From a virus: 64,000 bases of DNA. Shown piece by piece: positions 10,089-26,258 of this stretch (the stretch's first letter is position 1; each line of letters begins with the position of its first letter). The translations under genes and the position numbers were made by a program. Where the stretch lies: IMG/VR virus record IMGVR_UViG_3300027377_000018, one strand, 5' to 3'. The notes beneath the pieces are model-generated. The model had not been told where the DNA came from and ran no database searches. It saw only the letters and a list, made by a program, of their open reading frames with translations.

Positions 10089-11277
10089 ATGAAAATTGGA
10101 AACACGATATATCTCGACCATCAGGCGACCACGCCGGTAGATTTGCGTGTTCTTGCCGAAATGACGCCGTATTTCACCGAATCGTTCGGCAATCCGCATT
10201 CCGCCGATCACGCCCTCGGATGGGAAACATCGCGCGCCGTGGATGAGGCCGCCGCCCGAGTCGCGCGGTTGATCGGTGCGGACTCTGATGAAATCATCTT
10301 CACCTCGGGGGCAACGGAGTCCAACAACCTCGCCCTGTTGGGCCTTGCACGCCGTGCAGCTGGCGGCGAGCGTTGTCGTGTGCTGGTTGGCGCTGCCGAG
10401 CATAAATGCGTTCTGGCGGCCGGGCGTGCGCTCGAAGATCATCATGGTTTCAAAGTCGAGCGCCCTTCCGGTCAATTCGGAAGGTTTTGTGGAAACATCA
10501 ACACTTGAAGACTCGCTGGATGACGATGTTTTTCTTGTATCGATCATGGCTGTGAATAACGAGATCGGTACGATACAAGAAATAGAAAGTCTTTCGCGAA
10601 TCGTGAAGAGCTACGGAGCTTTGTTTCATTGCGATGCGGCGCAAGCTCCGGTCGCAATAGATTTGGGTTCTTTTGCAGAATACGTCGATACTATCAGTCT
10701 TTCGGCACACAAGATGTACGGACCAAAGGGAATCGGAGCCGTCTACGTCGCACGGGAACTGCAAGACCGGATCGAGCCGCTGATCTACGGCGGCGGCCAG
10801 CAGAACGGCTTGCGGTCGGGCACTGTGCCCGTCCCGCTCTGCGTCGGCATGGGAGCGGCGGCAGACATGTTGGCCGACGAAGCGGCGGACGAACAGCGAA
10901 AGGAATTGGGCAGCAAAAGAGACAGGTTCGTTGCCGGGCTGAATCGTCTTGTATGGCCGATCACGGTGAACGGCCCGGAAGGAAAAGCCCGGCATCCCGG
11001 CAATGCGAATATCCGGTTCACCGGGTTCGCAGCCCACGACATCATGGCTACCTTGCAGCCACACCTCGCGGCCTCGACCGGCTCGGCCTGCACAACGGGC
11101 ATACCGGAACCGTCGCATGTCCTTAAGGCCATCGGACTGACCAGCGATGAGGCCGAATCCTCGATCCGCTTCAGTCCCGGTTTCGCCACAAGCGATGATG
11201 ACATCGATGAAGCTGTGAACCGGATCAAAGAGGTGTTGGAGAAACTTTCGAAGGCCGAGTTGACGCGATCGGCCTGA
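10089..11277 (+). pseudogene. sspA: Cysteine desulfurase (IscS/DndA/SspA-like), +1 frameshift at ~10463-10465
   Basis: YLDHQATTP, FTSGATESNN and EHKCV in frame 1; MAVNNEIG, HCDAAQ, SAHKMYGPKG and STGSAC in frame 2. Removing one C from CCC at 10463-10465 gives a 395 aa ORF. Confidence 0.85.
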
Positions 11278-11987: not shown

Positions 11988-12918
11988 GAGTCCGATTCAA
12001 AAGTTCATGTGAGATAACAGCATGTTATGAGTCTTCTGGTCACGAGTCTGATGCTGGCGATGTTGACCCATGCGATGGCGGTTTCGGTGGACTTCTCCCA
12101 ATCCTTTGCGAGCCTGCGGCATCGGTTGAGCCAGGCGAATGTGCGCTCGACCACCCACCGCCGGGGCAAGACCTCGAAGCCTCTTGCGTTCTCGGGGCGT
12201 TTGACGATCTCTACCGTCCAGTCGCCAAGCCTGTCCAGCGCATCGCATAGTTTTGGCCCGGCGTAGCCGCCATCGGCGAAGACATGACGCAGCCAGGGAA
12301 ACCGGTAACGGATGGCTTTGATGGGGCTTGGCGCGCCATCACGGTCCTGGATATCGGCGGCATGGACGATGACGAACAGCATCAAGCCGAGCGTATCGGT
12401 GATGATGTGACGTTTGCGCCCCTTGATCTTCTTGCCGGCGTCATAGCCCCGAATGCCGCCGCTTTCCGTGGTTTTCACACTCTGAGTGTCGATCACGCCC
12501 GCCGTCGGTTGAGCCTCGCGCCCCTCCAGCTCGCGAGTGGCCGCCACCAGAATGTGGTTGATCGTCTGCCAAAGCCCGCTGTCACGCCAGGCATAGAAAT
12601 AGCCGCGCACCGGGGAGACCGGCGGGAAGTCCTTCGGCAGCATCCGCCACGGTGTCCCACCGCCGGCCATATAGAGGATGGCGTTCATCACTTCGCGCAT
12701 GTCCGTCGTGCGAGGTCGGCCGCCCGTCTTCGCCGGAGGAATGAGCGGCGCCAACAACGCCCATTCCTCGTCCGTCAAATCGCTTGGATAGCGCAGACCG
12801 TCCCGGTCATGCTGTCGGCGAGTGACATCATTCCAGGGCATGCATTCCTCCATACCTTCTGAAAAGACGGTTGAATCACATCCCATTGATATCACTCAAC
12901 TACTTTTAAATCAGGCTC
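11988..12918 (-). mobile_element. IS5 family (IS1031-like) element, 931 bp, copy 1
   Basis: Imperfect IRs GAGTCCGATTCAAAAG / CTTTTAAATCAGGCTC; TTA target duplication at 11985-11987 and 12919-12921. Confidence 0.92.
12005..12841 (-). CDS. IS5-family transposase
   Basis: YPSDLTDEEW, GVIDTQSVK, GKKIKGRKRH, FADGGY and RWVVERTFAWL motifs. Likely ATG at 12841 after GGAGGA. Confidence 0.93.
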   Translation of the reverse strand: MPWNDVTRRQHDRDGLRYPSDLTDEEWALLAPLIPPAKTGGRPRTTDMREVMNAILYMAGGGTPWRMLPKDFPPVSPVRGYFYAWRDSGLWQTINHILVAATRELEGREAQPTAGVIDTQSVKTTESGGIRGYDAGKKIKGRKRHIITDTLGLMLFVIVHAADIQDRDGAPSPIKAIRYRFPWLRHVFADGGYAGPKLCDALDRLGDWTVEIVKRPENARGFEVLPRRWVVERTFAWLNRCRRLAKDWEKSTETAIAWVNIASIRLVTRRLITCCYLT

Positions 12919-15059
12919 TTAGAGCGGCAACTGGAAGAGGAACAGGAGTCCGCCAACCTTCTGGAGGGTCGGCGCCGCAGTGTCATCGAAAAGATGGGGT
13001 TGCGCGACCAACCGGTGCTCGACCGTTATCAGGATGAAATATTTCGTCTCCCGCTCAATAGCCGCCTTTTGATTCTCGGTGCCCCCGGAACCGGGAAAAC
13101 GACAACCTTGATCCGGCGTTTGGGACAAAAGCTCGACTTGGACGCATTGGATGAGAGCGAACAAAGGCTCGTTGATCGCTCCTCCGACGGCAGCGGCGTA
13201 GAACATGGGAAAAGCTGGATTATGTTCACGCCCACAGAGCTTCTGAGGCACTACGTCAAGGACGCGTTTGCGCGCGAGGACATAGCGGCACCGGACGAGC
13301 GCATCTGCACATGGGCCGATTTCCGCCGCCAGTTGGCCAGACGTGAATTCAGTGTACTCCGTTCATCTTCAGGTAGCGGGACGTTTGTTATGCGTGAACA
13401 CATACAAACGCTCTTGCCGGAGACGATAAGCGATCAGACCTCCTGGTTTTCGGACTTCGACAACTGGCAGAAGGCCTATTTTTGGCAAGAACTGCGCGAT
13501 ACAGCCGAACGCCTGTCCGGAGAGCCGAGGAAAGCGATTTCGACGCTCGGTGACCGCATCCTGTCTCTGATAGATGAAGGAGGCAAGGAACCGTCGGCGA
13601 CAGTACTTGTGGCGCTACAGCGGCTTGTTGCCGATATCCAGGCCCAGCTCTCCGAACTGAAGGCGGCCACGGACGAACGAATTCGCCGGTCGCTCAATCT
13701 CCAGGTCAACCGTGACCAGAATTTTCTGGACGAGCTGGCGAAATTCTTGGACAGCCTCGCGGATGTTGGTGATGATCCCGATGACTCGGAGTTGGACGAA
13801 GAGGAAGAGGCGGCACCTCCCAAGACGAGAAGAGCCGGCGCCGCCGCGGCATATGCAAGGGCCGCGCGATCTCAGGCGCGGAGTACGGCAACAAGGCGGA
13901 GCATCGGAGAAGCGACACGGTCAGGGCGCCTGATCGACTGGCTTGGGAACCGGCTTCCAGGCGAGGAAGACCGTCTCGAAGTTGGTCAAAGTCTGGTGGT
14001 GCAATCGCAATTGAGGCGGTTCGTCAATCCGGTTCGACGGTATATCGATGGCGTACCGTCACGATATCGACGCTTTCGGCGTGCACATCAGAATGAGAAG
14101 AAGTGGTATCTTCCCGACGGATACGCGGCGACGGATATTCACCCGCTCGAAGTCGATTTAGTTCTGCTGGCCCTATTGCGTGGAGCGGATGAGCTGGTCG
14201 ACAAGATTCGGCCCGCGAGCGGAGAAGATGCAGAAGAGAATCCGATGCTGGCGCGCCAACGCCAGCTCTATCGAAATCAGGTCCTGGTGGACGAGGCGAC
14301 CGATTTCTCGCCGTTGCAACTTGGCTGCATGGCGGCACTTACGCCCCCCGGTATCCGGTCGTTCTTCGCTTGTGGTGATTTCAACCAGCGCGTCACAAAC
14401 TGGGGCACCCGCTCGATGGAAGAGATGCAGTGGGTTCTGCCGGAAATTGCAGCCAAATCCGTCGCGGTGGCATACCGCCAAAGCACACAGCCTCATGAGC
14501 TGGCAAAGCAAATTGTGGTTCAGACCGGTGGCGACGCAACCGATGTCGTATTGCCGGGGTTCGTCGACAATGAAGGCGTCGCGCCGGTTCTGGCGACAAA
14601 CCTCTCGCAACAGGACGATGTAGTGGATTGGTTGGCGGGGCGTATCGTTGAGATTGAGAATTTTGTCCAACAACTGCCCTCCATTGCTGTCCTCGTAAAC
14701 GACGAACGGGACGTGACACCGCTTGCGACGGCCTTGGGCGAAGCGTTGGAGGAACAGAATATCCGCGTTCTGGCCTGTCCGAATGGCCAGGTGATGGGAT
14801 TGGAGAGCGATGTGAGGGTATTCGATGTCCAGCACATTAAAGGGCTGGAGTTCGAAGCCGTCTTTTTTGTCGGTGTCGATCGGCTCGCGCAAACATACCC
14901 CGACTTGTTCGACAAGTATTTGTATGTCGGCGCAACACGTGCAGCCACATACCTGGGGCTCACGTGCGAACAGCAGCTTCCGGAAAGCATCGCTGAATTG
15001 GCGCATCTGTTTGAGGAAAACTGGGAGTAGGTTCCCGGCCGCATCCACTCGACTATTGA

Positions 15060-15482
15060 TTATTTCGTACGTCCCGCGAACTTTTCTGCCGTCCGCATCG
15101 CCCCGAGGCCCAGGAGCGACAACAGCACGGTGACCAGCGTTTCGGTACCTGTCAGTTCCGGCAACGCCGTGACATGAGGGAAGTAATTGACGGTCACCCA
15201 GGTCAGCAGATCGAACAGGATAAAGTGCCAGAGCAACGCGAAGCCGCAGACCCAGCCGATAAAGGGCCGCCAGCCGGCGACGAAGATCGAGCGGTGGCCG
15301 GCCTCGATCTTGTTGAGCTCGATCTGAGCCAGGCTGGGTTTCATCATCAGCTTGGCCTTGATCACCTCGGCGGCACGCTTCTCGTCGTCGGTCTCGACGA
15401 ACTGATCGATGATGTTGGCGACGCCCTCGGCGGCAGACACGACGCCTCCGCTGACGATCGACCCGAATATCTTGCCCAGCAT
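15060..15482 (-). CDS. Holin (3TM, GTA-holin-like)
   Basis: FVAGWRPFIGWVCG motif and hydrophobic segments; adjacent to the endolysin. Confidence 0.8.
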   Translation of the reverse strand: MLGKIFGSIVSGGVVSAAEGVANIIDQFVETDDEKRAAEVIKAKLMMKPSLAQIELNKIEAGHRSIFVAGWRPFIGWVCGFALLWHFILFDLLTWVTVNYFPHVTALPELTGTETLVTVLLSLLGLGAMRTAEKFAGRTK

Positions 15483-15485
15483 GAC

Positions 15486-15878
15486 CTACTCCACGATCTC
15501 GAAATGCACGAGGTCGTCAAAACCGTTATCCCGGACCTCGGTGTCGCTGTCCCAGTCGCCACCCCAACGGAGGCCGACACCCATCGCCTTGGCGGTCGCC
15601 AGGACGAATCCGGCGAACAGCGTTTGCCGCTCCCGGTCATCCCAGACGACCGGATAGGGCGTCACGTCGACGGCCAAGGACGGCACGGTGTTGTGCTTGC
15701 CATTCGGCCAGCGGACCTTGCTCTTACCCTCCTCGACCATCCGGTTCTGGCGTTCCTTGTCCCGATGACCCTCCAGGATGGTGCAGTCGAAATGCCGGAT
15801 CACTTCGTGGAACACCCGCTGAAGACGGGGATCACAGGTGCCGAGCCTGGAGAGCGACTTATCGGAGAAACTCGGCAT
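15486..15878 (-). CDS. Endolysin, M15-family peptidase
   Basis: EGHR..., SLAVD and WGGDW...DLVHFE zinc-peptidase motifs. Real start ATG 15878 inside the longer listed ORF. Confidence 0.85.
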   Translation of the reverse strand: MPSFSDKSLSRLGTCDPRLQRVFHEVIRHFDCTILEGHRDKERQNRMVEEGKSKVRWPNGKHNTVPSLAVDVTPYPVVWDDRERQTLFAGFVLATAKAMGVGLRWGGDWDSDTEVRDNGFDDLVHFEIVE

Positions 15879-16165
15879 CAGTGACCTCCGAAAAGCTTGA
15901 GCTTGATGGCGATGCCGGCGATCAGCGCCAGGATTAAACCGGTGGTGACGAGGCGCACGACGGTCTGCCAGGCGGTGTGTCTGGCAATGCGAACGGCACC
16001 CAGCAGGGATCGCAGATCGCGGATGTCGCTCGCGGCCTCCTCGTCGACGAGACCGACGTCGGCCAGCGCCCGTTTGGCGCCGCGCTCCGCGGCCAGTTCC
16101 AGGTATTGCTCGAACTCTTCGACGGACATGCGCACATGCCCGTCCTCCATGGTTGGACGGTTCAT
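15878..16165 (-). CDS. Small membrane protein of the lysis cassette (DUF6127-like)
   Basis: AAERGAKRALADVGL...DLRSLL followed by a C-terminal TM helix. Confidence 0.65.
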   Translation of the reverse strand: MNRPTMEDGHVRMSVEEFEQYLELAAERGAKRALADVGLVDEEAASDIRDLRSLLGAVRIARHTAWQTVVRLVTTGLILALIAGIAIKLKLFGGH

Positions 16166-16216: not shown

Positions 16217-17518
16217 TCAGGCGTCGCGCCGCATCGGACCATCGATGGCGACGGCGACTTTGCCCGTGAGCATCCAGAGGGCGCCCGTGAGCATGGCGAG
16301 GTTGTAGGTGAAGCTGTTGTCGCAGCCGCGACGCCAGTACTCGCCCTCGAGATACATGCAGGCACCCTTGCAGAGCTGGACGACGGGACAGCGCCGGCAT
16401 TCCTCGCGCAGCGACCAGTGTGTCGCTGTCGTCAGGCGAACCTCGTCTAGGGCCTCGACGTGCCCGATCCGATGGGCGGCATCGCCGGTGTTCTGGCAGG
16501 TGTAGACGTTGCCCTTGAGGTCGACAGCAATGTTGTCGTCCCGGTCCATGCCGCACTTCTGGCCAAGCGTCGAAGCGGGCCGGGCCTGGGCCAGGGAATT
16601 GAACCAGTCCTGAAGCTTCATCCAGACGGTGGAGACGGCGAGTGCGCTGCCGTCCATGATCTCACCGAGGAGCGCCAGCCGGATCTGCTTGTGCTCCTCG
16701 TCCGTCGCCGGCGAGAGCATGAGCCCGCCCGGATCGTAGGGCAGCAGAAGCTCTTCGCTGCCGACCACAACGGATTGGTCGCCCATCGTTTCAACGAACC
16801 ACTCGCGTGCCGCAGCGAGGCTATAGTGGTCTCGGGTCAGGACCACATTGAACGAGACCTTGCCCTTGGGGTGCAGGCGGGCGAACAGTGCTCGTATCGC
16901 CGCTGCCTTATCCGGGTCGTCGAACGGATCGGGTCCGCGCAGGGCCTGGCCGGGCCCGTCGTGGGAGACCGCGACGGCGAAATCCAGGCGATCGACCCAA
17001 TCAATCCTTTCTTCGTCGAGCACTGATCCGTTGGTGATGACGGAGAGCTCTGCGTTCGGCCACCGGGTCTTTATGCCCTCGGCCAAGGGTTTCAGCTTCT
17101 TCCAGTAAACGAAGGGTTCTCCACCCCAGAATTGGACATTGGTGCCAGCGCCCTTGCCATCCCTGCCGCCATCCCACCAGGAACCCAGATTGGCAAGGAA
17201 CCGGCTGACATCGCCGAGGTCGGTCAGTTTCTCTTGCCCGACCTGGCTCGCCTGACCGCAATAGGCACAGGAGTAATTGCAGCGAAACCCCAGCGAGACC
17301 TTGAGCTTTCGAACGCTGTGCGTCTTTCGGCCGGGCTGGTCGGGGCTCACGGCCGTCGCCGTGTCCCACGCCCTTTCCTCGTCCGCATAAACGAAACCGG
17401 CCGGGGAGAGATCCACCGGCCGGCCGTCTTCGTGGGTCAGGAGGGACGCGTGCGGGTCATAAAGGAGCCGCTCGGTCGAGCCATCGGGTCCTTGCAGCGT
17501 GATGGTGTAGATTGGCAA
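16217..17518 (-). CDS. Radical SAM/SPASM-domain protein (rSAM-2)
   Basis: CNYSCAYC (CxxxCxxC), FWGGEP, ITNGS, and C-terminal CGM...YTCQ...CRRCPVVQLCKGAC...C. TTG start 17518 after AAGGAG. Confidence 0.92.
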   Translation of the reverse strand: MPIYTITLQGPDGSTERLLYDPHASLLTHEDGRPVDLSPAGFVYADEERAWDTATAVSPDQPGRKTHSVRKLKVSLGFRCNYSCAYCGQASQVGQEKLTDLGDVSRFLANLGSWWDGGRDGKGAGTNVQFWGGEPFVYWKKLKPLAEGIKTRWPNAELSVITNGSVLDEERIDWVDRLDFAVAVSHDGPGQALRGPDPFDDPDKAAAIRALFARLHPKGKVSFNVVLTRDHYSLAAAREWFVETMGDQSVVVGSEELLLPYDPGGLMLSPATDEEHKQIRLALLGEIMDGSALAVSTVWMKLQDWFNSLAQARPASTLGQKCGMDRDDNIAVDLKGNVYTCQNTGDAAHRIGHVEALDEVRLTTATHWSLREECRRCPVVQLCKGACMYLEGEYWRRGCDNSFTYNLAMLTGALWMLTGKVAVAIDGPMRRDA

Positions 17519-18509
17519 TGGATGCTCCTTCTTGTTCGGCGATCCAGGCGAATAGCTCGTGCTTGGCCTTGGCGAGCCGGCAATCGACATCGTGGGTCTG
17601 CGATAGGTGACAGTTGCCGCGGCATCAGCGGTTGATGGGGCAGCCCCGGCATTCGGCGGTATCGACGAACCGGCGAACGTGCCTTAGCGCCGCTGCGGTC
17701 TCGGGCGTTTCCGGCTCCGACTGGAACAGGTGGCCGGTCCGCAGGCTCCGGCGGACCGAGTGGTGGCAGCCATAACGATTGCCGGCGAGATCGACCGATA
17801 CGTGGTCGTCGGCGTGGCATAGGGGCGCCGGCGACCGGGAGGGCGCGCCGAGGGCTTTCCGCCATTTCGTGAGATGGCCTTCGAACATGCCGTGGGCATA
17901 GCGGTGGCCATCGAGACGAAGGCGGGCGAGTTCGCGAAGATGCGGCACGTGGCGATCGAGATCAGCGTGGGTCAGGTAGTAGGCGGGATCACAGCCCTCC
18001 GTTGCCCGTACCCAGTGCACATAGGGAAAGAACGGTCGCCCGAAACGTTGCTCCAGCCGGTCGAGGTCCCCGAACCACGGCCAGGCGAACAGATTCTGGT
18101 GCGTGAACAGGAACGAGACCGCCGAGTTCTGCAACCTCGCCACCTGGTCCCATCTCGGCTCGCCGAACGGTTGATGCCGGCTCACCACCACGTAGGCATC
18201 CCAGCGATTGAGGGCTTCGACGTGCCGATCCTCGAGCAGGCTACCGTTCGTCACCAGCTTGACGAAGGTGAGCGGAACGCCGGCCGCAATGAGCGCCTCG
18301 TGGATCGCCTCGATGGCCTCCCAATAGAGCAGCGGCTCCCCGCCCCAATAGGCGACCTCGGTGATGCCCTTCGCCTTCATGTAGGGAACGACCCGGTCGA
18401 CAAAGTCCTCGACCGGGTGCCGGCGCCTCTCCGCGTCGCCGCCCTTGGGGTCCTGGAGACAATAGGCGCAGCGGAAGTTGCAGGCATAGCCGAGAAAGAT
18501 GTTGAGCAC
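17457..18509 (-). pseudogene. Radical SAM/SPASM-domain protein (rSAM-1) with in-frame TGA at 17625-17627
   Basis: CNFRCAYC, YWGGEP, VTNGS. The SPASM motif reads CRGCPINR*CRGNC...C and the frame stays open to 17457. Confidence 0.85.
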
Positions 18510-18513
18510 GGGT

Positions 18514-19434
18514 TCAGCCCGCCACGGGAACCGCTACCCGGATCTCGGCCTCCGCTACACCGCTGAAGTGCCGGAACCCGGCCTTCAGGCGGATAGTATC
18601 GCCCGCCTCGAGGCCGAGCGCCATGAAGCGAAACGATGCCGTGCCCGCATCTACGGCCACACGCTGGTGCGGCAGGTATCCGCCGGTGGCCTCGAGAAAA
18701 ATCTCCGGTGCGGCGTCGCCGATCAGGCGGCCACGGCTGTTGACGACCTTCAGCCCGATGGTCGCCGTTTCCTCCGGTGCGATCGTGCTTGGCGCATCGA
18801 GCCTCAGGCTCGGCAGCGCCTTCCTGCCGATGGTCGGGATCTCGGCGGCGCTATGTTCGGCGCCGGGATCGAGATTACCGATGAGGCCGTAGTCCGGGTG
18901 CAACGTCAGACGGAAACTGCAGATGTCGAATTCGCAGGTCCTGAACGGAACGTAGACCTGAAGCGGCAGGTTCACGCCCGCCACCGCCAGTTGACGGGGG
19001 GCCGGCATCCGTGCGGCAAAGCTCACCGGATAGCGATTGAAGGGTGCCAGCGGCACGCCAGCTGTCCCGGCACAATAGGGAGTCGCCAACGGAAACATCC
19101 AGTTTCCGTGGTCCGACCACTCGGCCCGATCCTGCAGAGCATCGAGATCCAGGGCGACCGCGCCGAGGGCACAGAACAGTCGATCATCGAAGCGGCGGTC
19201 CAGCATGATGCCAGGCGTCGGGGTTCGGGCAGCATGAGCGGCAGGAACGATCCCGGCATGCTGCCCGACCTCGATCTCATGATCGGCTTCCGCTATTGGC
19301 TGACCGGTAAATCGCCCCACACCGTCGACGACTTCCTCGTATGTGCGGAGGGTGACCATACGCGGCGCGCGCAGCACCTCGATCAACAGCGGTACCGGCA
19401 GACCCCACATATGGGCCGTGAAAGGCGTAATCAT
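18514..19434 (-). CDS. Hypothetical protein with a beta-rich (Ig-like?) C-terminal domain, between tail fibre and rSAM genes
   Basis: 306 aa ORF with GAGGAG RBS, tightly packed (4-12 nt gaps) on both sides. Confidence 0.75.
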   Translation of the reverse strand: MITPFTAHMWGLPVPLLIEVLRAPRMVTLRTYEEVVDGVGRFTGQPIAEADHEIEVGQHAGIVPAAHAARTPTPGIMLDRRFDDRLFCALGAVALDLDALQDRAEWSDHGNWMFPLATPYCAGTAGVPLAPFNRYPVSFAARMPAPRQLAVAGVNLPLQVYVPFRTCEFDICSFRLTLHPDYGLIGNLDPGAEHSAAEIPTIGRKALPSLRLDAPSTIAPEETATIGLKVVNSRGRLIGDAAPEIFLEATGGYLPHQRVAVDAGTASFRFMALGLEAGDTIRLKAGFRHFSGVAEAEIRVAVPVAG

Positions 19435-19446
19435 CGAAGAAGCTCC

Positions 19447-20301
19447 TCAGGCATCGCCGCAATCGCAGTTGCAATTGCAATAAGTGCAGTAGCTGCAATA
19501 GGAGCAGTACGAGCAGTAGGACATGCAGTTGTAGTTGACCCGCTGGAACGCGAGCCGGACCTGCGTCGCAGAGACCTGCTCCATCGTGTAGCTGTAGTAA
19601 TAGAAACTGCCAGAGCCAGTGGTCCCGGCGTCTCGCGCGCTGCCCACGGACGCATAGCCCTTGTTGAAGAGCGCAGCGAGGTCTGTGGCGTCGGCGATCT
19701 TAAAGCCGGTGGCGCCCGCGTTTCCCTGGGACTTGACGCTGGGCGCGACAAGCTCTCCAGTCATCGTGTCGCCGGCCTTGGCGACCCGACCCGATTGATC
19801 GACCCCCGCCTGGATATCCGCCACTGGCGTGGTGGCGGCATCGGAAAGCCCGAGCGTGCTACGCTGGGCCGCCGCATTGGCGTCGTCGAGCAGCGCCTTG
19901 CCGGCGGGCGTGACCGGCACCGCCTGGGCCTGACCGTCGCCGGTGCGTTCGATGAGACCGGTTCCGGTCAATCCGGCAACGGCCGTGAGGTCTGCATCCT
20001 TTGCCTGATAGGCCGTGTCGTGGTTGTGGCCGATGGCGGCGAACAGCGCCTGCGCCTCTTCCTTGGAAAGATAGCTCTTGGATAGATCGGCGATGACAAC
20101 CCAGACATCGGGCCCCGTGCTCTTGAGCTGATAGAGCTTCTGCTCATCGGTCCTGAGACAGAGCATGCCCGCTTGCGCGCCCGCCGTGGGGAAGGTGGTG
20201 CCCGAAAAGCAGGACGCCACCGCATCATCGCGATCGAGGATCTTCTGACGGCTGTTCTGCAGGGAGTCAGTCGAGGGAATGTCGGGATAATTCTGCGCCA
20301 T
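19447..20301 (-). CDS. Tail-fibre-like protein with C-terminal Tyr/Cys repeat
   Basis: GHNHD, ALLDDANAAAQRSTLGL and RVAKAGDTMTG fibre motifs; ends NYNCMSYCSYCSYCSYCTYCNCNCDCGDA. Confidence 0.75.
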   Translation of the reverse strand: MAQNYPDIPSTDSLQNSRQKILDRDDAVASCFSGTTFPTAGAQAGMLCLRTDEQKLYQLKSTGPDVWVVIADLSKSYLSKEEAQALFAAIGHNHDTAYQAKDADLTAVAGLTGTGLIERTGDGQAQAVPVTPAGKALLDDANAAAQRSTLGLSDAATTPVADIQAGVDQSGRVAKAGDTMTGELVAPSVKSQGNAGATGFKIADATDLAALFNKGYASVGSARDAGTTGSGSFYYYSYTMEQVSATQVRLAFQRVNYNCMSYCSYCSYCSYCTYCNCNCDCGDA

Positions 20302-20310
20302 CGATAGCTC

Positions 20311-21327
20311 CTAGTATCCGAGGGCCGACCAGCTGACGGTGCCGGCGACGAGGGTCACGCCGTCCGCCGCATCGAACAGCCGGACGTCGAAGCCCGTGGT
20401 CGTGATCGCGGTGATCTCGGGCAATGCCGGCGTGGCGCCAGCCTTCAGCGTCACCTGCACCTCCGGCGGCTCCGTAAAGCCACGGTTGAAAGCGACCGTG
20501 CCCCCCGTCACTGGAACGCTTGCCGTGCCCCGGTCACGCACGTCGGGGACATCGACGTTGAAAACCGCATCCGCGATCGCGACCCGCTCTCCGGTCACGG
20601 GCGCCGAGAGCAAGAGGCCAATCAGGGCCTTTGCATACTCGTAGTCTCCGGGAACAAGATCGCGGAACGGCCCATAGCCGAGCGGGCCCTTCGCCACTAC
20701 CAGATCCCGGAAGCCCGTCTCGTCCAGGGGCGTCGAACGCACCGCCAGATCGGCAAGTACGGCGTTGGCGTGCCGCAGCAGCGCATCCACGAGCGCGAGA
20801 GCCTCGAAGGAGAGGCGAGCGGACGTCTTCGCCTCCGTATCCGTCAGTGCAACCGTTTCTGGGAGATCGCGCCGGAAGGCGGTAGGCCGCTCGAGCGCAT
20901 CCGCCAGCGCCAACGGCTCTATGGAGTTCTTGGCTGGAAAGCTGGCTCGCATATCCACCAGGCCGAATGCCGCGGCCTCGGGATGCTGGGCGATTTTCGC
21001 CGCGACCTCGCCGAGCGCCAGGTTCTCGGCGACCGACAGGATGAAGTTGATGTAGTCGAGATAGGTTTCCGCAATGGCCAGGGTCCGACGCCTATGGACC
21101 AGGATCTCCCCGATCCGCACATCCGCAAGGGCAAGCGTGGATGAGGCGAGCGGTCCCGCGATCCGAGCAGCCATCCCGGCGACCGGCAGAGCTTCACCGG
21201 CATCCGCGGCATAGTCGGACACATGTGCCCCTGACCATTCCTTGTCGGCCTCGACGTCCTGCCAGTCGAAGACCGAGGTCACCCAGGTATAAGCAGCACC
21301 CGGCGTCTCGGTGATATGAACCGACAT
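20311..21327 (-). CDS. Tail-associated repeat protein with a C-terminal lectin-like beta domain
   Basis: Eight LALAD-like repeats; C-terminal FNRGFTEPPEVQVTL...TTTGFDVRL. Confidence 0.6.
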   Translation of the reverse strand: MSVHITETPGAAYTWVTSVFDWQDVEADKEWSGAHVSDYAADAGEALPVAGMAARIAGPLASSTLALADVRIGEILVHRRRTLAIAETYLDYINFILSVAENLALGEVAAKIAQHPEAAAFGLVDMRASFPAKNSIEPLALADALERPTAFRRDLPETVALTDTEAKTSARLSFEALALVDALLRHANAVLADLAVRSTPLDETGFRDLVVAKGPLGYGPFRDLVPGDYEYAKALIGLLLSAPVTGERVAIADAVFNVDVPDVRDRGTASVPVTGGTVAFNRGFTEPPEVQVTLKAGATPALPEITAITTTGFDVRLFDAADGVTLVAGTVSWSALGY

Positions 21328-21329
21328 GA

Positions 21330-21788
21330 TCAAGACATCGTGAAGGTGAACTTCTGGGTCAGTGTGTCGTCGACACCCTTGTTGATGACGGCGAACACGA
21401 CGCGGTCGAGCATGGTGCCGGCCGTGGCGGCGTTGAACACACCGGCCTCGGTGATGGCGCCGGTGGCCTCGCCCGGATCGAAGGTGGTCTCGAAGGTGAA
21501 CACTTTGGTTCCCGCCGTATGGGCGTAGGTGGCGGACTTGCGGGCGAGTTCAGTGCCGAGGGCCGTATCCCCGGCGGCGGCTGCGACGGCCCCGGTGCCG
21601 ACGGCGATGTGACCCATGGCCCCCGGTCGACCGGAGGAAAGTCCGATGACGTCGGCGATGAAGTCGAAGCCGACATCGACGATCAGATTGTCCTTCCGCC
21701 GCACGACAATCTCACCGTTGGCGCGGTACAGGCGCAGCTCTACCGCCCCCCTCAGGCGCAAACCCGAGGGCAGGTCTCTTCTGTTCAT
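21330..21788 (-). CDS. Phage tail-associated protein
   Basis: NLIVDVG...HIAVGTG...ITEAGVFNA...MLDRVVF, a motif set common in tail distal genes. Confidence 0.65.
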   Translation of the reverse strand: MNRRDLPSGLRLRGAVELRLYRANGEIVVRRKDNLIVDVGFDFIADVIGLSSGRPGAMGHIAVGTGAVAAAAGDTALGTELARKSATYAHTAGTKVFTFETTFDPGEATGAITEAGVFNAATAGTMLDRVVFAVINKGVDDTLTQKFTFTMS

Positions 21789-21799
21789 GATGTTCTCCG

Positions 21800-24700
21800 T
21801 TAAGGGTAGAGCCGCAGCTCGTCGAAGGCGCCGAGCGGTGCGAGAGATTGACTGGCGCTCGCCACATCACCCGTCTTCCAGGACGCGGCGTGCAGGGCGC
21901 GCTCCGTCGCCGACTGGGAGACCCCGAAAGTGACGATGTCGCCGGCGATCCGCGCGAGGGTCAGTCCGACCCGGTTGCCGAGATGGTCTTCGAGGTAATA
22001 GATGCCGACATTCGGATCGTAGCCGAGGCTCAGGGCGCCGGAGCCCCCGGACCAGACCAGGTAGATTTGCGGCTCCTCCAGCAGTTCATCGAAGCGAAGA
22101 TCGAACGTCGCCGAAAACTCCGCCGGCACGCTCAGGGGCCAGGCGACCTGAGTGGTGTCACGAACCTCAAGTCCTTTGGCGAAGCGGGCATCGCCATAAC
22201 CGAGCCCCAGCGTTTTCGACGCTGCGGTTCCGTTGATCCCTCCCGTTTGCTCATCGAGCGTGAAACCCTCGACGAGGTCGTTCGCGGGCGGCTGCTCGAG
22301 GGCGATCACGGTCCGCAGTTCGGCCCCATCGGCATCGCCCACCGGTAGCCACGGCGCATTCGCCTGGACCGCGTCCCACGCGAAGTTCGCGTCGGACCAG
22401 GCCGGCGGGTCGGCCGGGATGGCGACGATGCCGGATGCCAGCCAATTGCGCGCCCGGAAGATCTTGGCGAGATCGGCCTTGAAATAGTGTGCGCCCTTGG
22501 GCGCATTCACACCGCCGCTGCGCGCCAATGCCAGGAGGCCGTCGGTCACGACCTCGAGCTCATGGCTGACACCTGGCCAACCGAGCGCCTTTCGGTCGCT
22601 CAGCACGATGACGTTGCGATCGGACAACGGCGCCAACCGCGTCGTGGCAAAGGTAGCGTTATGGCTGTAGAGCCCGGCGGCCGAGACCGCCTTGCACCAG
22701 AAGGTCTCATCGGCGGGCATCTGAACTGGCCAGAGCGCCACCAGATGGTCCCCGGCGGACCGACCGACGAACCGCCCTTGCCCCCAGCTCTCGCCCGCAC
22801 GGATCTCATATTCGACACCGGCGATGGGCAGCGAGGTCCACGAGAAGCGGACATGTTCCCCCTGGGGAACCGCATCGAAGCCCGTGACATCGGCGGGCGG
22901 CACTACGGACGCGACCACGCTGACGGCGCTGACGCTTCGAAGCCCGAGCTCGTCGACAGCGCGAATGTGAAACCGATGATCTTCGGCATCGGCCAACCCC
23001 ACGAACAGGGAGGTGCCGCGATGCCGGGTGGTCACCACGGTGCCGACATCCCAGGACTCGCCATCCCGGATCTCGTAACCGACCACATCGAGTGCGCTGA
23101 CGGGATTCCAGGAAAGCTGCACGCCATCGGCCCGACGCGTCGTCTGGAAGTTGATTACGTCAGAGGGCTGCGTGGTCTTGCCCACCACAACGTGGCCGAG
23201 AACCTCCGTCCACTCGGAGGCCAGGCCTTCGCGACTCACCGACCGAAGGCGGATGTCGTAGGCGACACCATCCTCGACCGGCTGCACCGCGATCTCACCC
23301 GATGCCGACGGCGCCGGCGGCAGAACACGCCATTGCTCGGCGCTTCCCGCGAGACGGTAATGGGCATGAATGTACTCGGCCGGGTCGTTCAGTCCCGCGT
23401 TCAAGGCCACCCGGACCACGATCCGAGATTGCGTGCGACCGTCCGCGCCGACAACGAGGACGCTTTCATCGGATACCACCTCATCCACGACGGGGGCCGC
23501 CGGCGTCTGGCGCTCGACCAGCGGCGGCAACGTCATCAGCGAATCGAAGTCGGGAATGGGACCGGTATCCGCCTGGTGAACCTCCGGCGCCGCGTCGACC
23601 AGGGTCAGCGTGGCGCGGAAGTCGCCTGAGTGACGGATCGCCTTGACGATCAGGTCGACACTCTCTCGGGCTGCCTCGCCGAAGAGCGCAAGGTCGCCCA
23701 ACTCCGGCGATGCCATCGCCGGGACGGGCTGGAGAAACGCGAGGGTGTCGGTCTCACCCGCCTGCGTGACGACACTCGCGACGCTGCTGACGCCGTCCGC
23801 ATGGCGGAAGCGGACGGCATAGGTCTTGCCCGCCTCCATGGCGACCACGTCATCGAGCGTGGCCGAGGTCGCATCGCCAGTGGCGTCGAAGGCAACGTCC
23901 TTGACCCGTCCCCAGCCGCCGCCCCAGAGCGGCACGTCGTGGCTGACCTTGACCAGATCGCCAGCCGTGCAGACCAGGTGGTCGATGTCGACGGAGATCT
24001 CGTAGGTCTCGGGCCGTAGCTTGCCGACCGCCAGATGATAGCGCCCGTGCTTCCAGGCGAGATCGGCGCTGGTGCAGCCGAAGAGTTCCAGGGTCTCGAA
24101 GCGGCTCGAGTTCGTCTCGCTGTAACCGTCCGCGTAGACGATCACCTCGTCCTGTTGCCAGTCGCGATCCGGATTGACGAAGCGGCACTTGAGGCCGTGG
24201 GGGATCTTGGTGAAGGCCTTGATACCCCGGAACCCCATCGTGTTGCGCGGCGTGAAGTGCTGGATCGGCACCGATTGTGCTACGTCGCGGACGATCGAGA
24301 ACTTGCCGTCCCGCATGCCGAACCCGGCCCGACCCGCGGCTGCAATGTCGCGCATCAGCTCGAACACGGTGGTCGGGTAGTCGATGACCGCATCGAAGGT
24401 GAACTCAGGCGTCGCATCAGCCCAGGTCTTGAAGGTACCGAGATCGAGCCGCTCGTCGGACACCGGCCGCCTGTTGGCCGCGCCGCGCAACACATCGAGA
24501 TAAGCCCAGGCCGGATGACGTGTCGCCTGTTCGATCCACTGCCCGCCATCCCAGACCGGCAGAAGGGCCTGCGTCACCGCCGAAAACTGATTGACGATGC
24601 CGTTCAGTTGATCTGTTGCCTTGATACGCATGGCGACGAGGCAGCGGCCAGCCGCCTTCACGGGCACGGTGTGCTGGACGGTTCGGATCGCCGAGACGAG

Positions 24701-25864
24701 GCTGTCGTCGCGGATACGGGTCGAGGTGTTGTCTGCGGTCAGCCTGGTGAAACGAACCTCGTAGCGACCGCTCGCGGGCGTCACAATGCGCACGCCCCTG
24801 CGGACGACCTGCTCGGTCGCCGCCGTGTAGGTCGCGGTGGCATGCTCAGTCCATGGATCGGATGACCCGGCGAGCCGGTACTCGACCTTGATATCGACGG
24901 AGCGATCCTGCCGGTTGCCGCTGTCATCGAAGCGAACCAGGCCGCGGAAGGTGATGTCGGCGATGATCTCGTCAGCGCCGTCGCGGGTCTCCAGGACCTC
25001 CGGACCGCCATCGCTGGTGATCTTCAGCGAGTACTGATCCTCGCGAATGGTGTCGGTGTAGAGCGTGATCGGTGCGTCAGACGCATAACCCTGCCGGATC
25101 TCGGTCTCCACGCCCTCGAACTGGGCCAGCGGGATGGCGCCGATACGCAAATCCGAGAGTTCCAGGGGCCCGTAGCCGAAGTCGAACAGCATGCGCAGAT
25201 ACTGAGCGTCACCCTCGACCTCGGTGTGCGGATGGGCCGCCAGGGTCGGAAACACCCGGTGGCGGCCGTAGACGCGCGGTACGGACCCGTATCGGTTGGC
25301 GCGGTTCTGCGTGCCGGTGATCGCGAGCGTCGGGCTGGTGCGGCTCTGCGGACCACCGATCGAAAGCTCGGCGAGCTTAGGTCTCGGCGGTGGTGCGATG
25401 GCGTTGACGATCAGGTTGCCGACCAGCGTGATCGCCGCACCGCCGATGGCGGAGGCCAGATTGATGGTCTGGCCGAAGATCACCGCTTCGGTGGGCAGCC
25501 CCATGGCCGCGCCGACGGCCGGCCCCAGCACGAAGGCGGCGGCCACCACGGCGATGGTCAGGATGGTGCGAAGCGGGTTCTTGCCGCCCCCGCCGCCCTT
25601 GCCCGGCGCGACCCGAAGGGTGACCACGGCGCCGGCTTTGGGACGCACGCGCGCCCATCGGTCCCGAGGCACCATGACCGGGTCGTCGGTCATCGCCCCA
25701 TCCGTGATCCAGACATGGGCATGGGCCACGAGGATTGGGTCGAGCCCGAGCGAATCCATGATGTCGGCGATGGAACCGCCCACCGGCACGGCGCGATCGA
25801 TGCGCTCGGCGGAAAACGGGCGCGGGCAGGCGATCAGCCGCAGAGCGTTTTCGTCAACCATCAT
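21800..25864 (-). CDS. Host-specificity/tail tip protein (gpI+gpJ-like, FN3 domains)
   Basis: gpI-like N-terminus, YGSVPRVYG, TipJ-like core (HPAWAYLDVL, YHLA..KLRPE), FN3-like repeats. Start probably ATG 25864/25861. Confidence 0.85.
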   Translation of the reverse strand: MMVDENALRLIACPRPFSAERIDRAVPVGGSIADIMDSLGLDPILVAHAHVWITDGAMTDDPVMVPRDRWARVRPKAGAVVTLRVAPGKGGGGGKNPLRTILTIAVVAAAFVLGPAVGAAMGLPTEAVIFGQTINLASAIGGAAITLVGNLIVNAIAPPPRPKLAELSIGGPQSRTSPTLAITGTQNRANRYGSVPRVYGRHRVFPTLAAHPHTEVEGDAQYLRMLFDFGYGPLELSDLRIGAIPLAQFEGVETEIRQGYASDAPITLYTDTIREDQYSLKITSDGGPEVLETRDGADEIIADITFRGLVRFDDSGNRQDRSVDIKVEYRLAGSSDPWTEHATATYTAATEQVVRRGVRIVTPASGRYEVRFTRLTADNTSTRIRDDSLVSAIRTVQHTVPVKAAGRCLVAMRIKATDQLNGIVNQFSAVTQALLPVWDGGQWIEQATRHPAWAYLDVLRGAANRRPVSDERLDLGTFKTWADATPEFTFDAVIDYPTTVFELMRDIAAAGRAGFGMRDGKFSIVRDVAQSVPIQHFTPRNTMGFRGIKAFTKIPHGLKCRFVNPDRDWQQDEVIVYADGYSETNSSRFETLELFGCTSADLAWKHGRYHLAVGKLRPETYEISVDIDHLVCTAGDLVKVSHDVPLWGGGWGRVKDVAFDATGDATSATLDDVVAMEAGKTYAVRFRHADGVSSVASVVTQAGETDTLAFLQPVPAMASPELGDLALFGEAARESVDLIVKAIRHSGDFRATLTLVDAAPEVHQADTGPIPDFDSLMTLPPLVERQTPAAPVVDEVVSDESVLVVGADGRTQSRIVVRVALNAGLNDPAEYIHAHYRLAGSAEQWRVLPPAPSASGEIAVQPVEDGVAYDIRLRSVSREGLASEWTEVLGHVVVGKTTQPSDVINFQTTRRADGVQLSWNPVSALDVVGYEIRDGESWDVGTVVTTRHRGTSLFVGLADAEDHRFHIRAVDELGLRSVSAVSVVASVVPPADVTGFDAVPQGEHVRFSWTSLPIAGVEYEIRAGESWGQGRFVGRSAGDHLVALWPVQMPADETFWCKAVSAAGLYSHNATFATTRLAPLSDRNVIVLSDRKALGWPGVSHELEVVTDGLLALARSGGVNAPKGAHYFKADLAKIFRARNWLASGIVAIPADPPAWSDANFAWDAVQANAPWLPVGDADGAELRTVIALEQPPANDLVEGFTLDEQTGGINGTAASKTLGLGYGDARFAKGLEVRDTTQVAWPLSVPAEFSATFDLRFDELLEEPQIYLVWSGGSGALSLGYDPNVGIYYLEDHLGNRVGLTLARIAGDIVTFGVSQSATERALHAASWKTGDVASASQSLAPLGAFDELRLYP

Positions 25865-26258
25865 GGCGATAGAGTCCCAGGACACGACGGCGCCACTTGG
25901 CGCCGTCATAAGGTTCAAGACAGGCGTCGATGCCGTCCTCGATGTGCAGCATCCATCCGATGGCAACGACGACGCCCACATGCATGGGCTGGTTCATGAG
26001 GCGCATGAGAACCACATCACCTGGCCGCTCCGCGCCGGGCGGCACCGGATGCCACGGGCCCATCTCGCCCCGGATCAGACGGCCGATATCCTTGGCGTCC
26101 TCGACGGAGGCATAACCGTCGGCGTAGGACGGCAGCCGCCTTCCGAATTGATCGGCGAGCACGAGCCGGACGAGGCCCCAGCAATCGACGCCTTCCCGGT
26201 CGCGGCCATGCGCCTTGAACGGCAGGCCGACATAGGCGTTCACCCAACTGGGCAACAT
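25854..26258 (-). CDS. NlpC/P60 tail assembly protein (gpK-like)
   Basis: GVDCWGLVRLV and HVGVV...MLH catalytic C/H. Confidence 0.88.
   Translation of the reverse strand: MLPSWVNAYVGLPFKAHGRDREGVDCWGLVRLVLADQFGRRLPSYADGYASVEDAKDIGRLIRGEMGPWHPVPPGAERPGDVVLMRLMNQPMHVGVVVAIGWMLHIEDGIDACLEPYDGAKWRRRVLGLYRHDG

What the first reader, a model, noticed from the sequence alone, without database searches (positions are those of the whole stretch)
16217..20301. Phage tail operon encodes a RiPP-like system: two radical SAM/SPASM enzymes next to a tail fibre ending in a Tyr/Cys repeat
Seen: inside the tail operon, between tail genes and lysis cassette and co-transcribed with minimal gaps, the order is fibre-like protein (C-terminal CMSYCSYCSYCSYCTYCNCNCDC), 306 aa unknown, rSAM-1, rSAM-2. 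Both rSAMs have CxxxCxxC and C-terminal SPASM-type Cys clusters. Known: rSAM/SPASM enzymes are peptide maturases that form Cys thioether crosslinks (sacti-/ranthipeptides) or aromatic-X-X cyclophanes (triceptides), normally on short secreted precursors. Inference: here the core peptide is fused to the tip of a virion protein, so the phage would oxidatively crosslink its own receptor-binding fibre (rigid tip, protease resistance, metal or receptor binding). I know of no characterised system that modifies a virion structural protein in this way.
Basis: partly seen in the sequence, partly recalled or inferred. Interest (0 to 1): 0.93.

Follow-up and report, generated by a model that had tools for sequence, protein, structure and literature searches.

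The report
Phage tail fibre with enzyme-modified cysteine tail
A prophage encodes a tail fibre ending in an alternating cysteine repeat next to radical-SAM enzymes, and the same pairing recurs in about nine of ten related phage loci, so these phages very probably modify the tip of their own host-recognition fibre chemically, which the searchable literature does not describe.

Summary
On the minus strand of a lambda-like prophage lie, in order:
- a 284-aa fibre ending CMSYCSYCSYCSYCTYCNCNCDCGDA;
- a 306-aa protein (p306);
- rSAM-1;
- rSAM-2;
- the lysis genes.

The rSAM-2 family is large: 256 clusters at 50% identity. In 104 of 120 related loci, a same-strand ORF within 4 kb upstream ends in an alternating (Asn/Asp/Ala-Cys)n tail, or carries that tail directly before a self-cleaving Hint domain. 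The background rate is 31 of 20,337 ORFs. Cultured phages JWF and RSP15 show the same arrangement.

The conserved substrate mark is the x-Cys alternation. The Ser-Tyr-Cys repeat is an insertion specific to this lineage.

The usual cassette is fibre, p306, a 2OG-Fe(II) oxygenase and one rSAM. In this window's clade rSAM-1 takes the oxygenase's place. rSAM-1 occurs only where the tail ends Cys-x-Asp.

Here rSAM-1 carries a TGG-to-TGA nonsense codon inside its SPASM motif, so it is probably inactive.

The most likely chemistry is PapB/QhpD-type thioether cross-linking. This is inferred, not shown.

No paper describing the system was found. This scan noted the same family before on other DNA (e1-3435272).

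The parts
19447..20301 (-). Tail fibre, 284 aa. It has a conserved N-terminal attachment domain of about 70 aa, a variable shaft and a Cys-repeat tail.
   Evidence: ORF. The N-terminus aligns with fibres of 16 other loci and with phage JWF gp028. The gene lies after gpJ and tail genes p340 and p152.
19450..19536 (-). Predicted substrate tail, residues 256-284: NYNC-M-(S/T-Y-C)x5-NCNCDC-GDA. It comprises the conserved (x-Cys)n core, a lineage-specific SYC insertion, and a terminal Cys-Gly-Asp-Ala.
   Evidence: The same kind of tail sits upstream of rSAM-2 homologues in 104 of 120 loci.
18514..19434 (-). p306, a phage-specific accessory or structural protein. It has an N-terminal beta-rich domain with no matched fold and a C-terminal Big-1/invasin-type Ig-like domain (residues 208-303).
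   Evidence: A homologue lies between fibre and rSAM in 62 loci and in phage RSP15 as ORF047. The AF2 model has pLDDT 92.5. The Ig-like domain scores Z 10-12 against GH2 C-terminal domains, intimin and invasin. Only uncharacterised phage proteins match the full length.
17457..18509 (-). rSAM-1, a radical SAM/SPASM paralogue without the N-terminal domain. It would be 350 aa if read through. It is interrupted by a premature TGA at 17625-17627 (codon 295) inside CX2CX5CX3C.
   Evidence: All 11 relatives checked have TGG at this codon. It is 28% identical to rSAM-2.
16217..17590 (-). rSAM-2, the core radical SAM/SPASM enzyme. It has an N-terminal domain of about 70 aa, CX3CX2C and a seven-Cys SPASM. 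The likely true start is the TTG at 17518, which follows an AAGGAG site.
   Evidence: The family comprises 256 clusters at 50% identity with E<=1e-30, and more than 579 IMG/VR contigs.
20311..25981 (-). Upstream tail genes, given as context: gpJ-like tip attachment protein (21800-25981), p152 (21330-21788) and p340 (20311-21333).
   Evidence: gpJ matches PF24801 and PF13550. p152 matches phrog_4176, tail fiber protein.
15060..16165 (-). Downstream lysis region, given as context: a DUF6127 protein, an endolysin-like ORF (not tested with any tool) and a GTA-type 3-TM holin.
   Evidence: PF19622 and PF11351.

Best explanation
This is a virion-protein maturation cassette.

The fibre has three parts. 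Its N-terminal 70 residues attach it to the tail. Its middle is a variable receptor-binding part. Its C-terminus is an alternating x-Cys tail, where x is mostly Asn, Asp or Ala.

rSAM-2 is a radical SAM enzyme with a complete SPASM domain carrying auxiliary Fe-S clusters. It acts on that tail in the host cytoplasm before or during fibre assembly.

The most likely reaction follows PapB, QhpD and the streptococcal Asn-x-x-Cys enzymes. The enzyme abstracts a hydrogen from the alpha or beta carbon of a neighbouring residue and joins that carbon to a Cys sulfur. This gives redox-insensitive thioether staples. They could lie within one chain or between the three chains of the fibre.

A second, interchangeable finishing step treats the extreme C-terminus in one of three ways:
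- a 2OG-Fe(II) oxygenase, where the tail ends in Cys;
- a fused Hint domain that cuts itself off directly after the repeat;
- in this window's clade, the paralogue rSAM-1, where the tail ends Cys-x-Asp. This could be a PapB-like Cys-to-Asp link.

p306 is a conserved partner: a chaperone, a recognition factor or a tip component.

In this window rSAM-1 carries a nonsense codon, so only the rSAM-2 step is expected to work.

Shown: the gene order, the domain identities, the conserved pairing and the co-variation. Inferred: enzyme-substrate contact, the type of bond and the benefit to the phage.
For: 1. Conserved pairing. In 104 of 120 loci with at least 3.5 kb of upstream sequence, a same-strand ORF within 4 kb upstream of the rSAM-2 homologue carries the tail. 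In 98 it ends in (xC)>=3; in 6 the repeat lies directly before a Hint domain. Only 31 of 20,337 other ORFs have such a tail, and most of those are antisense images of the same DNA. Four more loci carry variants.

2. Breadth. The tail-bearing ORFs range from 76 to 1084 aa stop to stop. They sit in siphovirus, myovirus and jumbo-phage contigs and in prophages of Alpha- and Betaproteobacteria. Where checked, they follow tail-fibre genes.

3. Conservation. Across otherwise divergent fibres, only the N-terminal domain and the N-C/C-N-C-x-C-x-C tail columns are conserved.

4. Enzyme class. rSAM-2 has CX3CX2C and a full SPASM domain, with TIGR04085 above its cut-off. Its best named matches are Cys-peptide or protein maturases: nif11-type, PapB over the full length, QhpD, anSME and SCIFF. 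By sequence, its nearest solved structures are anSME and CteB.

5. Hint fusions. The Hint domain starts at the last Cys of the repeat, and PF05203 scores above its cut-off in JWF and in L126. The mature protein would therefore again end at the repeat.

6. Co-variation of the finishing step. In the first set, 11 of 12 loci with rSAM-1 end C-x-D(x); the twelfth ends CGDGGGG. Only 1 of 96 loci without rSAM-1 has that ending. Six further, more distant rSAM-1 loci (43-63% identity) end CGDA, CND, CSD or CRD. Of 61 tails ending in Cys, 54 have a 2OG oxygenase.

7. Chemical precedent. PapB links Cys to the carbon alpha to an Asp/Glu side-chain carboxylate or to the C-terminal carboxylate (PMC12373016, abstract).
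Against: - There is no biochemical evidence. No mass, no bond type and no enzyme-substrate contact have been shown.
- The complex prediction for rSAM-2 with the fibre tail gave no answer (score 0.01).
- No RiPP recognition element was detected in the N-terminal domain by Pfam.
- rSAM-2 scores far below the cut-off of every curated maturase family. The chemistry cannot be transferred by homology.
- The x position tolerates Ala, Gln, Ser, Thr, Tyr and Arg. This fits alpha-carbon (sacti-type) links, or a different reaction, as well as beta-carbon links to Asn/Asp.
- About 8 of the 120 loci (34-48% identity; Bacteriovoracaceae and others) show no fibre or Cys tail among ORFs of at least 70 aa.
- The rSAM-1/Cys-x-Asp co-variation rests on only 2-3 phylogenetically independent contrasts on the rSAM-2 tree (sign test p 0.5). 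The extra loci were not placed on a tree.
- The 2OG-oxygenase/terminal-Cys association is not significant on independent pairs.
Confidence: 0.6

Rival explanations
1. The substrate is the same but the chemistry is different. rSAM-2 modifies the x-Cys tail without forming thioethers. Candidates are anSME-like oxidation of Cys to formylglycine, epimerisation, or C-C/C-N cross-links. The oxygenases would then hydroxylate Asn/Asp.
For: - anSME is among the nearest solved relatives (4k36-4k39) and among the NCBIfam matches.
- JWF gp030 was first deposited as an 'anaerobic sulfatase-maturating enzyme'.
- 2OG oxygenases, and Asp/Asn beta-hydroxylase-like proteins, accompany the rSAM. This shows that more than one kind of modification is made.
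- The x position is variable.
Against: - The anSME target motif C/S-x-P/A-x-R is absent from the tails.
- The anSME family score is 41 against a cut-off of 349.
- Every characterised SPASM enzyme whose substrate is a multi-Cys peptide makes S-C links. This rests on established knowledge of sacti- and ranthipeptides and QhpD, not on a test made here.
Confidence: 0.22
2. The x-Cys tail is a metal or iron-sulfur binding ladder in the trimeric fibre tip, like the His-x-His iron sites of T4 gp37. The neighbouring rSAM would then act on something else or only help to load the metal.
For: - Alternation puts all Cys on one face of a beta-strand.
- Fibres are trimers.
- T4 gp37 and gp12 have metal sites on the fibre axis. 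This is established knowledge; gp12 is cited in PMC2938197, reference 68.
Against: - Metal binding needs no dedicated enzyme. Yet a SPASM-type rSAM, and usually an oxygenase, is kept next to the tail in about 90% of 120 loci, across many fibre types and also with 72-120-aa carriers.
- The finishing enzyme co-varies with the last residues of the tail.
Confidence: 0.08
3. It is a classical RiPP. The C-terminal Cys peptide is cut off the carrier protein and released as a small bioactive product, with the fibre-like part serving as a long leader.
For: - Some carriers are only 72-120 aa, for example in Bradyrhizobium L006 and in L136/L166.
- A few homologues lie in non-phage settings near an ABC-transporter-like gene (L033).
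Against: - No protease or exporter is conserved in the cassette.
- The carrier has a conserved tail-attachment N-terminus and sits in tail modules.
- The Hint forms cut after the repeat, not before it.
- The cassette lies between the tail and lysis genes of complete prophages.
Confidence: 0.05
4. In this particular prophage the cassette is decaying and does nothing.
For: - rSAM-1 has a TGG-to-TGA nonsense codon that removes three SPASM cysteines.
- A cysteine-desulfurase-like gene elsewhere in the window is also frameshifted.
Against: - The fibre, p306 and rSAM-2 are intact. Their counterparts in relatives are 75% (p306), 92% (fibre) and 77-95% (rSAM-2) identical and are open.
- A single base change may be a sequencing error or a very recent event.
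- rSAM-2 alone is the conserved core of the system elsewhere.
Confidence: 0.05

Closest known systems
PapB/PapA (freyrasin) and other ranthipeptide systems (CteB/SCIFF; streptococcal Asn-x-x-Cys RaS-RiPP)
   Same: Both use a radical SAM enzyme with a SPASM domain and a substrate rich in Cys with Asp/Asn nearby, encoded next to the enzyme. PapB is one of the best matches, and the one aligned over almost the whole enzyme (residues 99-413 of rSAM-2). PapB links Cys to Asp/Glu or to the C-terminal residue (PMC12373016). This resembles the Cys-x-Asp ending that goes with rSAM-1.
   Different: - The family scores are far below cut-off (52.6 against 340).
- The spacing is C-x-C rather than C-x3-D.
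- No PqqD-type recognition domain was detected.
- The substrate is a 284-aa virion fibre, not a short leader-core peptide.
- There is no protease or exporter.
- The partners are 2OG oxygenases, a Hint domain or a second rSAM.
QhpD/QhpC (quinohemoprotein amine dehydrogenase maturation)
   Same: A SPASM radical SAM enzyme installs Cys-to-Asp/Glu thioethers in a protein subunit that stays part of a larger assembly. This is a protein modification rather than natural-product synthesis. That description rests on established knowledge. QhpD is among the NCBIfam matches.
   Different: The score is 43.7 against a cut-off of 453. QhpC is a small periplasmic enzyme subunit with a quinone cofactor, not a repeat tail on a virus fibre.
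Anaerobic sulfatase-maturating enzyme (anSME)
   Same: It has the same SPASM architecture and acts on a full-length protein. It is among the nearest solved structures by sequence (4k36-4k39). It is also the original annotation of JWF gp030.
   Different: The target motif C/S-x-P/A-x-R is absent and no sulfatase is nearby. The score is 41.3 against a cut-off of 349.
CXXX-repeat rSAM systems, and the phage fibre Cys-repeat cassettes noted earlier by this scan
   Same: The theme is the same: Cys-repeat tails on, or beside, phage tail fibres with dedicated radical SAM enzymes (earlier notes e1-2959424 and e1-356888). The same x-Cys family was noted on other DNA in e1-3435272.
   Different: Those systems have a Cys every third or fourth residue, other rSAM families and mostly anaerobe or giant-phage hosts. 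Here the repeat is strict C-x-C, the hosts are aerobic Alpha- and Betaproteobacteria, the partners are 2OG oxygenases, and there are three alternative C-terminal finishing modules.
T4 gp37/gp12 fibre tips with His-x-His metal sites
   Same: Both have an alternating ligand-type residue repeat at the distal end of a trimeric fibre.
   Different: The residue is His rather than Cys, no modifying enzyme is involved, and the metal is bound non-covalently.

Membership tests
Radical SAM superfamily (PF04055) | CX3CX2C cluster motif and a match above the Pfam gathering score. | tested here: met
   rSAM-1 scores 48.9 bits and rSAM-2 31.1 bits, against a cut-off of 29.5. The motifs are CNFRCAYC and CNYSCAYC.
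SPASM-domain radical SAM enzymes (TIGR04085) | C-terminal auxiliary-cluster domain with CX2CX5CX3C plus upstream and downstream Cys. | tested here: met
   rSAM-2 scores 38.9 bits against a cut-off of 27. Seven Cys are invariant in five homologues. rSAM-1 has the motif only if the TGA at codon 295 is read through. As encoded, it is truncated.
PapB-family ranthipeptide maturase (NF047865) | Score above the curated equivalog cut-off. | tested here: not met
   rSAM-2 scores 52.6 bits and rSAM-1 39.2 bits, against a cut-off of 340.
PapB-family ranthipeptide maturase (NF047865) | The adjacent substrate has Cys followed by Asp/Glu at a fixed short distance (C-x3-D). | tested here: inconclusive
   The tails have Asn/Asp directly flanking each Cys. 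In rSAM-1 loci there is a terminal C-x-D. The spacing differs from PapA.
SCIFF maturase CteB (TIGR03974) / QhpD (TIGR03906) / anSME (TIGR03942) | Score above the curated cut-off. | tested here: not met
   Scores are 35.8 against 425, 43.7 against 453 and 41.3 against 349.
anSME | Target motif C/S-x-P/A-x-R in the substrate. | tested here: not met
   The motif is absent from the fibre tail here and from the tails examined in related loci.
RiPP pathway in the strict sense | A short precursor with a leader and a core; the leader is removed and the product released; often an RRE (PqqD-like) domain in the maturase. | tested here: not met
   - The carrier is a 284-aa fibre, and 76-1084 aa stop to stop elsewhere.
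- No conserved protease or exporter lies between the fibre and the rSAM.
- The N-terminal domain has no PqqD match even at E<=10.
- Release of a peptide cannot be tested with these tools.
Thioether (sacti-/ranthi-) cross-linked product | An S-C bond between Cys and the alpha, beta or gamma carbon of an acceptor residue. | not testable with these tools
   This needs mass spectrometry or NMR of the modified tail.
   The (S/T)-Y-C units occur only in the window's close relatives. Other tails have at most one Tyr or Phe.
Phage tail fibre | A position in the tail module and homology to known fibre proteins. | tested here: met
   - The gene lies after gpJ, p152 (phrog_4176, tail fiber) and p340.
- The N-terminal domain is shared with JWF gp028, whose GenBank note cites pfam03903 (phage T4 tail fibre gp36).
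- Presence in virions was not tested.

The most novel reading that the evidence does not exclude
Many phages of Alpha- and Betaproteobacteria finish their receptor-binding fibres with an enzymatically built, covalently cross-linked poly-Cys tip. A dedicated radical SAM enzyme installs it. One of three interchangeable modules then caps it: a 2OG oxygenase, a second radical SAM enzyme acting on a terminal Cys-x-Asp, or a self-excising Hint domain. If so, this is a previously unrecognised class of virion post-translational modification, needed for fibre assembly, stability or adsorption.
Probability: 0.5. Interest if true: 0.9.

Novelty: new variant of a known kind. Interest (0 to 1): 0.8.

Why it matters
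Radical SAM/SPASM chemistry on Cys-rich peptides is known from antibiotics-like natural products and from one enzyme subunit (QhpC).

Here the same type of enzyme is wired to the host-recognition organelle of a virus. The family is large, with 256 clusters at 50% identity and hundreds of viral contigs.

If the tail is covalently stapled, several things follow:
- It would be a new kind of structural modification of virions.
- It would explain a widespread group of unannotated phage genes: rSAM, p306, 2OG oxygenases and fibre-Hint fusions.
- It would offer redox-proof cross-links for engineered fibres.

Two cultured phages, JWF and RSP15, carry the cassette, so the question can be tested directly.

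The co-variation between the finishing enzyme and the last residues of the tail gives concrete substrate predictions.

Tried and rejected
- **Complex prediction.** rSAM-2 (residues 24-457, with three 4Fe-4S clusters and SAM) was folded with fibre residues 225-284. The score was 0.01 against a mark of 0.34. The tool gave no answer, which is evidence neither for nor against binding.
- **Fibre monomer model.** The AF2 model built from 17 sequences had mean pLDDT 39.6 and was not used.
- **Recognition element.** Pfam was run at E<=10 on the N-terminal 80-96 residues of rSAM-2 and of a homologue. The only match was a weak, sub-threshold one (T4_Y13H) and there was no PqqD match.
- **TGA as selenocysteine or a recoded codon.** Rejected, because all 11 relatives checked have TGG at that codon.
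- **Tyr-based cyclophane (triceptide) reading.** Not supported, because Tyr is not conserved in the tails.
- **rSAM-1 acting on the SYC sub-motif.** Rejected. rSAM-1 occurs with tails that lack SYC repeats and instead tracks the terminal Cys-x-Asp.
- **N-terminal domain of p306.** Foldseek against PDB, AFDB clusters and BFVD, and VIA-align wide, returned no named fold for residues 1-205. Only family members matched. The domain was not folded alone.
- **Literature.** Nine full-text searches found no description of the system.
- **Whole genome.** None is held for this window.

Full report
**Observation.**
One search shows a tight minus-strand gene row in the flagged stretch.
- A 284-aa protein at 19447-20301 ends ...NYNCMSYCSYCSYCSYCTYCNCNCDCGDA.
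- A 306-aa protein, p306, lies at 18514-19434.
- Two radical SAM genes follow: rSAM-1 at 17625-18509 and rSAM-2 at 16217-17590.

Both enzymes pass the Pfam Radical_SAM threshold. rSAM-2 passes the NCBIfam SPASM domain model.

Downstream lie a DUF6127 gene and a GTA-type holin. Upstream lie tail genes up to a gpJ-like protein.

The element is a complete lambda-like prophage. It has terminase gpA, a lambda-type portal, a capsid protein, a tail tube protein and a tape measure protein.

The gaps are 12 nt between fibre and p306 and 4 nt between p306 and rSAM-1.

One point needs sharpening. rSAM-1 stops at an in-frame TGA in the middle of its SPASM motif (CRGCPINR-TGA-CRGNC). All 11 relatives checked have TGG there. 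This copy therefore carries a nonsense mutation or a base-call error. It is not a recoded codon.

**Is the pairing more than chance?**
tblastn of rSAM-2 against phage records found homologues of 38-43% identity in Achromobacter phage JWF and Ralstonia phage RSP15. In both, the gene lies just after tail-fibre genes.
- JWF gp028 shares the window fibre's N-terminus. It carries ...NCNCDCNCNCS-C, followed at once by a Hint domain.
- RSP15 ORF048 ends ...NCQCGN.
- RSP15 ORF047 is a homologue of p306.

Scans of genome and IMG/VR contigs with a five-sequence profile gave 160 further loci. More than 579 viral contigs matched.

A script then tested the 120 loci that have at least 3.5 kb of upstream sequence.
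- 104 have a same-strand ORF within 4 kb upstream with at least three x-Cys units at the very C-terminus (98 loci) or directly before a Hint domain (6 loci).
- Only 31 of 20,337 other stop-to-stop ORFs have such a feature. Most of those are antisense images of the same repeat.
- Four of the 16 misses carry variants.
- About eight are in non-fibre settings.

The median distance from the carrier's stop to the rSAM match is 1.5 kb.

The carriers range from 76 to 1084 aa stop to stop. In Bradyrhizobium two called ORFs of 72 and 77 aa end NCACDCNCACGK and ACACDCNCNCGK. In Thioclava a small carrier and two oxygenases follow strong tail-fibre PHROG hits.

The enzyme family comprises 256 clusters at 50% identity with E<=1e-30. 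Hosts are mainly Alpha- and Betaproteobacteria.

**What is conserved in the substrate.**
In the fibre alignment, only the N-terminal domain of about 70 residues and the columns N-C ... C-N-C-x-C-x-C are conserved.

The (S/T)-Y-C units of the window are an insertion found only in its near relatives. Other fibres have ...NCNCGGFNCYSNCNCNC... at that place.

The alternating x-Cys tail is therefore the family's hallmark, not the Tyr/Cys repeat. The aromatic-cyclophane idea has no comparative support.

**The rest of the cassette.**
ORFs between the carrier and rSAM-2 were clustered. The main groups are:
- the p306 family, in 62 loci;
- a family in 68 loci whose tested member is a 2OG-Fe(II) oxygenase (PF13759; PF13640 for a second cluster; phrog_81);
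- a JWF gp029-like family, in 15 loci;
- rSAM-1, in 11 loci.

rSAM-1 is a 28%-identical paralogue of rSAM-2 without the N-terminal domain. It occupies the slot that the oxygenase has elsewhere.

It co-varies with the last residues of the tail.
- In the first set, 11 of 12 rSAM-1 loci end C-x-D(x). The twelfth ends CGDGGGG.
- Only 1 of 96 loci without rSAM-1 ends that way.
- A separate scan seeded with an intact rSAM-1 found six more distant loci (43-63% identity). Each has rSAM-2 downstream of rSAM-1, adjacent in four and one gene away in two, and a tail ending CGDA, CND, CSD or CRD.

On the rSAM-2 tree the two traits change together in all 2-3 independent contrasts. That is too few for significance.

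Of 61 tails ending in Cys, 54 go with a 2OG oxygenase. Of 7 Hint fusions, 5 have none of the recurrent accessory families (2OG oxygenase, rSAM-1, JWF gp029-like) in that interval. Neither trend is significant on independent pairs.

In Hint fusions the Hint domain starts at the last Cys of the repeat. Self-cleavage would therefore again leave the repeat at the C-terminus.

**p306.**
An AF2 model built from 47 sequences is confident, with pLDDT 92.5.
- Residues 208-303 form a Big-1/invasin-type Ig-like domain, with Z 10-12.
- The N-terminal 200 residues match only uncharacterised phage proteins.

Its role cannot be decided here. It could be a chaperone, a recognition factor or a tip component.

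**Mechanism.**
rSAM-2's best named matches are all Cys-peptide or protein maturases: nif11-type, PapB over the full length, geopeptide, QhpD, YhhB and anSME. All score far below the family cut-offs. By sequence, its nearest solved structures are an unnamed rSAM (8vpo), anSME and CteB.

PapB joins Cys sulfur to the carbon next to an Asp/Glu carboxylate, and even to the C-terminal residue (PMC12373016). Tails rich in Asn/Asp-Cys at the extreme C-terminus fit this chemistry. So does the Cys-x-Asp ending that goes with the second enzyme.

I therefore favour thioether stapling of the fibre tail. I put the enzyme-substrate link at about 0.75-0.8 and the thioether chemistry at about 0.45.

The rivals are another modification of the same tail, a metal ladder like the T4 gp37 His-x-His sites, a released RiPP, and local decay of the cassette.

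**Novelty.**
Nine full-text searches found nothing on this system.

This scan had already noted the same x-Cys family on other DNA (e1-3435272). It had also noted analogous Cys-repeat fibre cassettes in other phage groups.

- the count of the association against a background;
- the oxygenase / rSAM-1 / Hint alternatives;
- the Cys-x-Asp co-variation;
- the p306 fold;
- the nonsense codon in this copy.

I class the finding as a new variant of a known kind: SPASM maturation of Cys-rich substrates, applied to a virion fibre.

Noticed in passing
window 10089-11277 (+): A cysteine-desulfurase-like gene is split over two frames (10089-10508 and 10276-11277). It is NifS/IscS/SspA-type and carries the PLP-lysine motif SAHKMYGPKG. 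The split implies a frameshift near 10500. Together with the TGA in rSAM-1, this hints at either gene decay or base-call errors in this assembly.
   Followed up: no
window 12005-12895 (-) and 12994-15030 (+): A 296-aa DDE transposase (IS5-like by eye) and a 678-aa P-loop, UvrD-like protein lie between the cysteine-desulfurase cluster and the lysis end of the prophage. The prophage border is therefore near 15050.
   Followed up: no
L006 7321-7785 and 8636-11993 (Bradyrhizobium hipponense): Two tandem ORFs of 77 and 72 aa end NCACDCNCACGK and ACACDCNCNCGK, directly after a fibre with a chaperone-like C-terminus. A membrane fatty-acid-desaturase-like protein with His boxes lies upstream of the rSAM. 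Downstream lies an Asp/Asn beta-hydroxylase-like protein just below the Pfam cut-off, followed by a similar-looking second ORF that was not scanned. This is a different accessory set for the same tail.
   Followed up: partly
L011 5856-7307 (phage JWF gp028); L126, L128, L147, L038, L039, L162: These are fibre-Hint fusions. The x-Cys repeat runs straight into the catalytic Cys of a Hint (intein-like) domain, as in ...NCNCSC-FPAGT.... In L126 the shaft is collagen-like. Most of these loci lack the 2OG oxygenase.
   Followed up: partly
L136 and L166/L167 (IMG/VR contigs; L136 is from a 229-kb contig): Three tandem small ORFs, each ending NCNCNC(NC), precede a single rSAM. They measure 93-167 aa stop to stop. 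One enzyme therefore appears to serve several carriers.
   Followed up: no
L069, L072, L075 (Bacteriovoracaceae and others); L033, L045, L051: These rSAM-2 homologues are 34-48% identical and have no fibre or Cys-tail ORF of at least 70 aa nearby. L033 has an ABC-transporter-like neighbour. They may act on short peptides that the ORF filter missed.
   Followed up: partly
window 17457-17590: If rSAM-1 is read through its TGA, it overlaps the annotated ATG start of rSAM-2 by about 130 nt. Homologues align only from residue 25-28 of rSAM-2. An AAGGAG site followed by TTG lies at 17518, so rSAM-2 probably starts there and is 433 aa long.
   Followed up: partly
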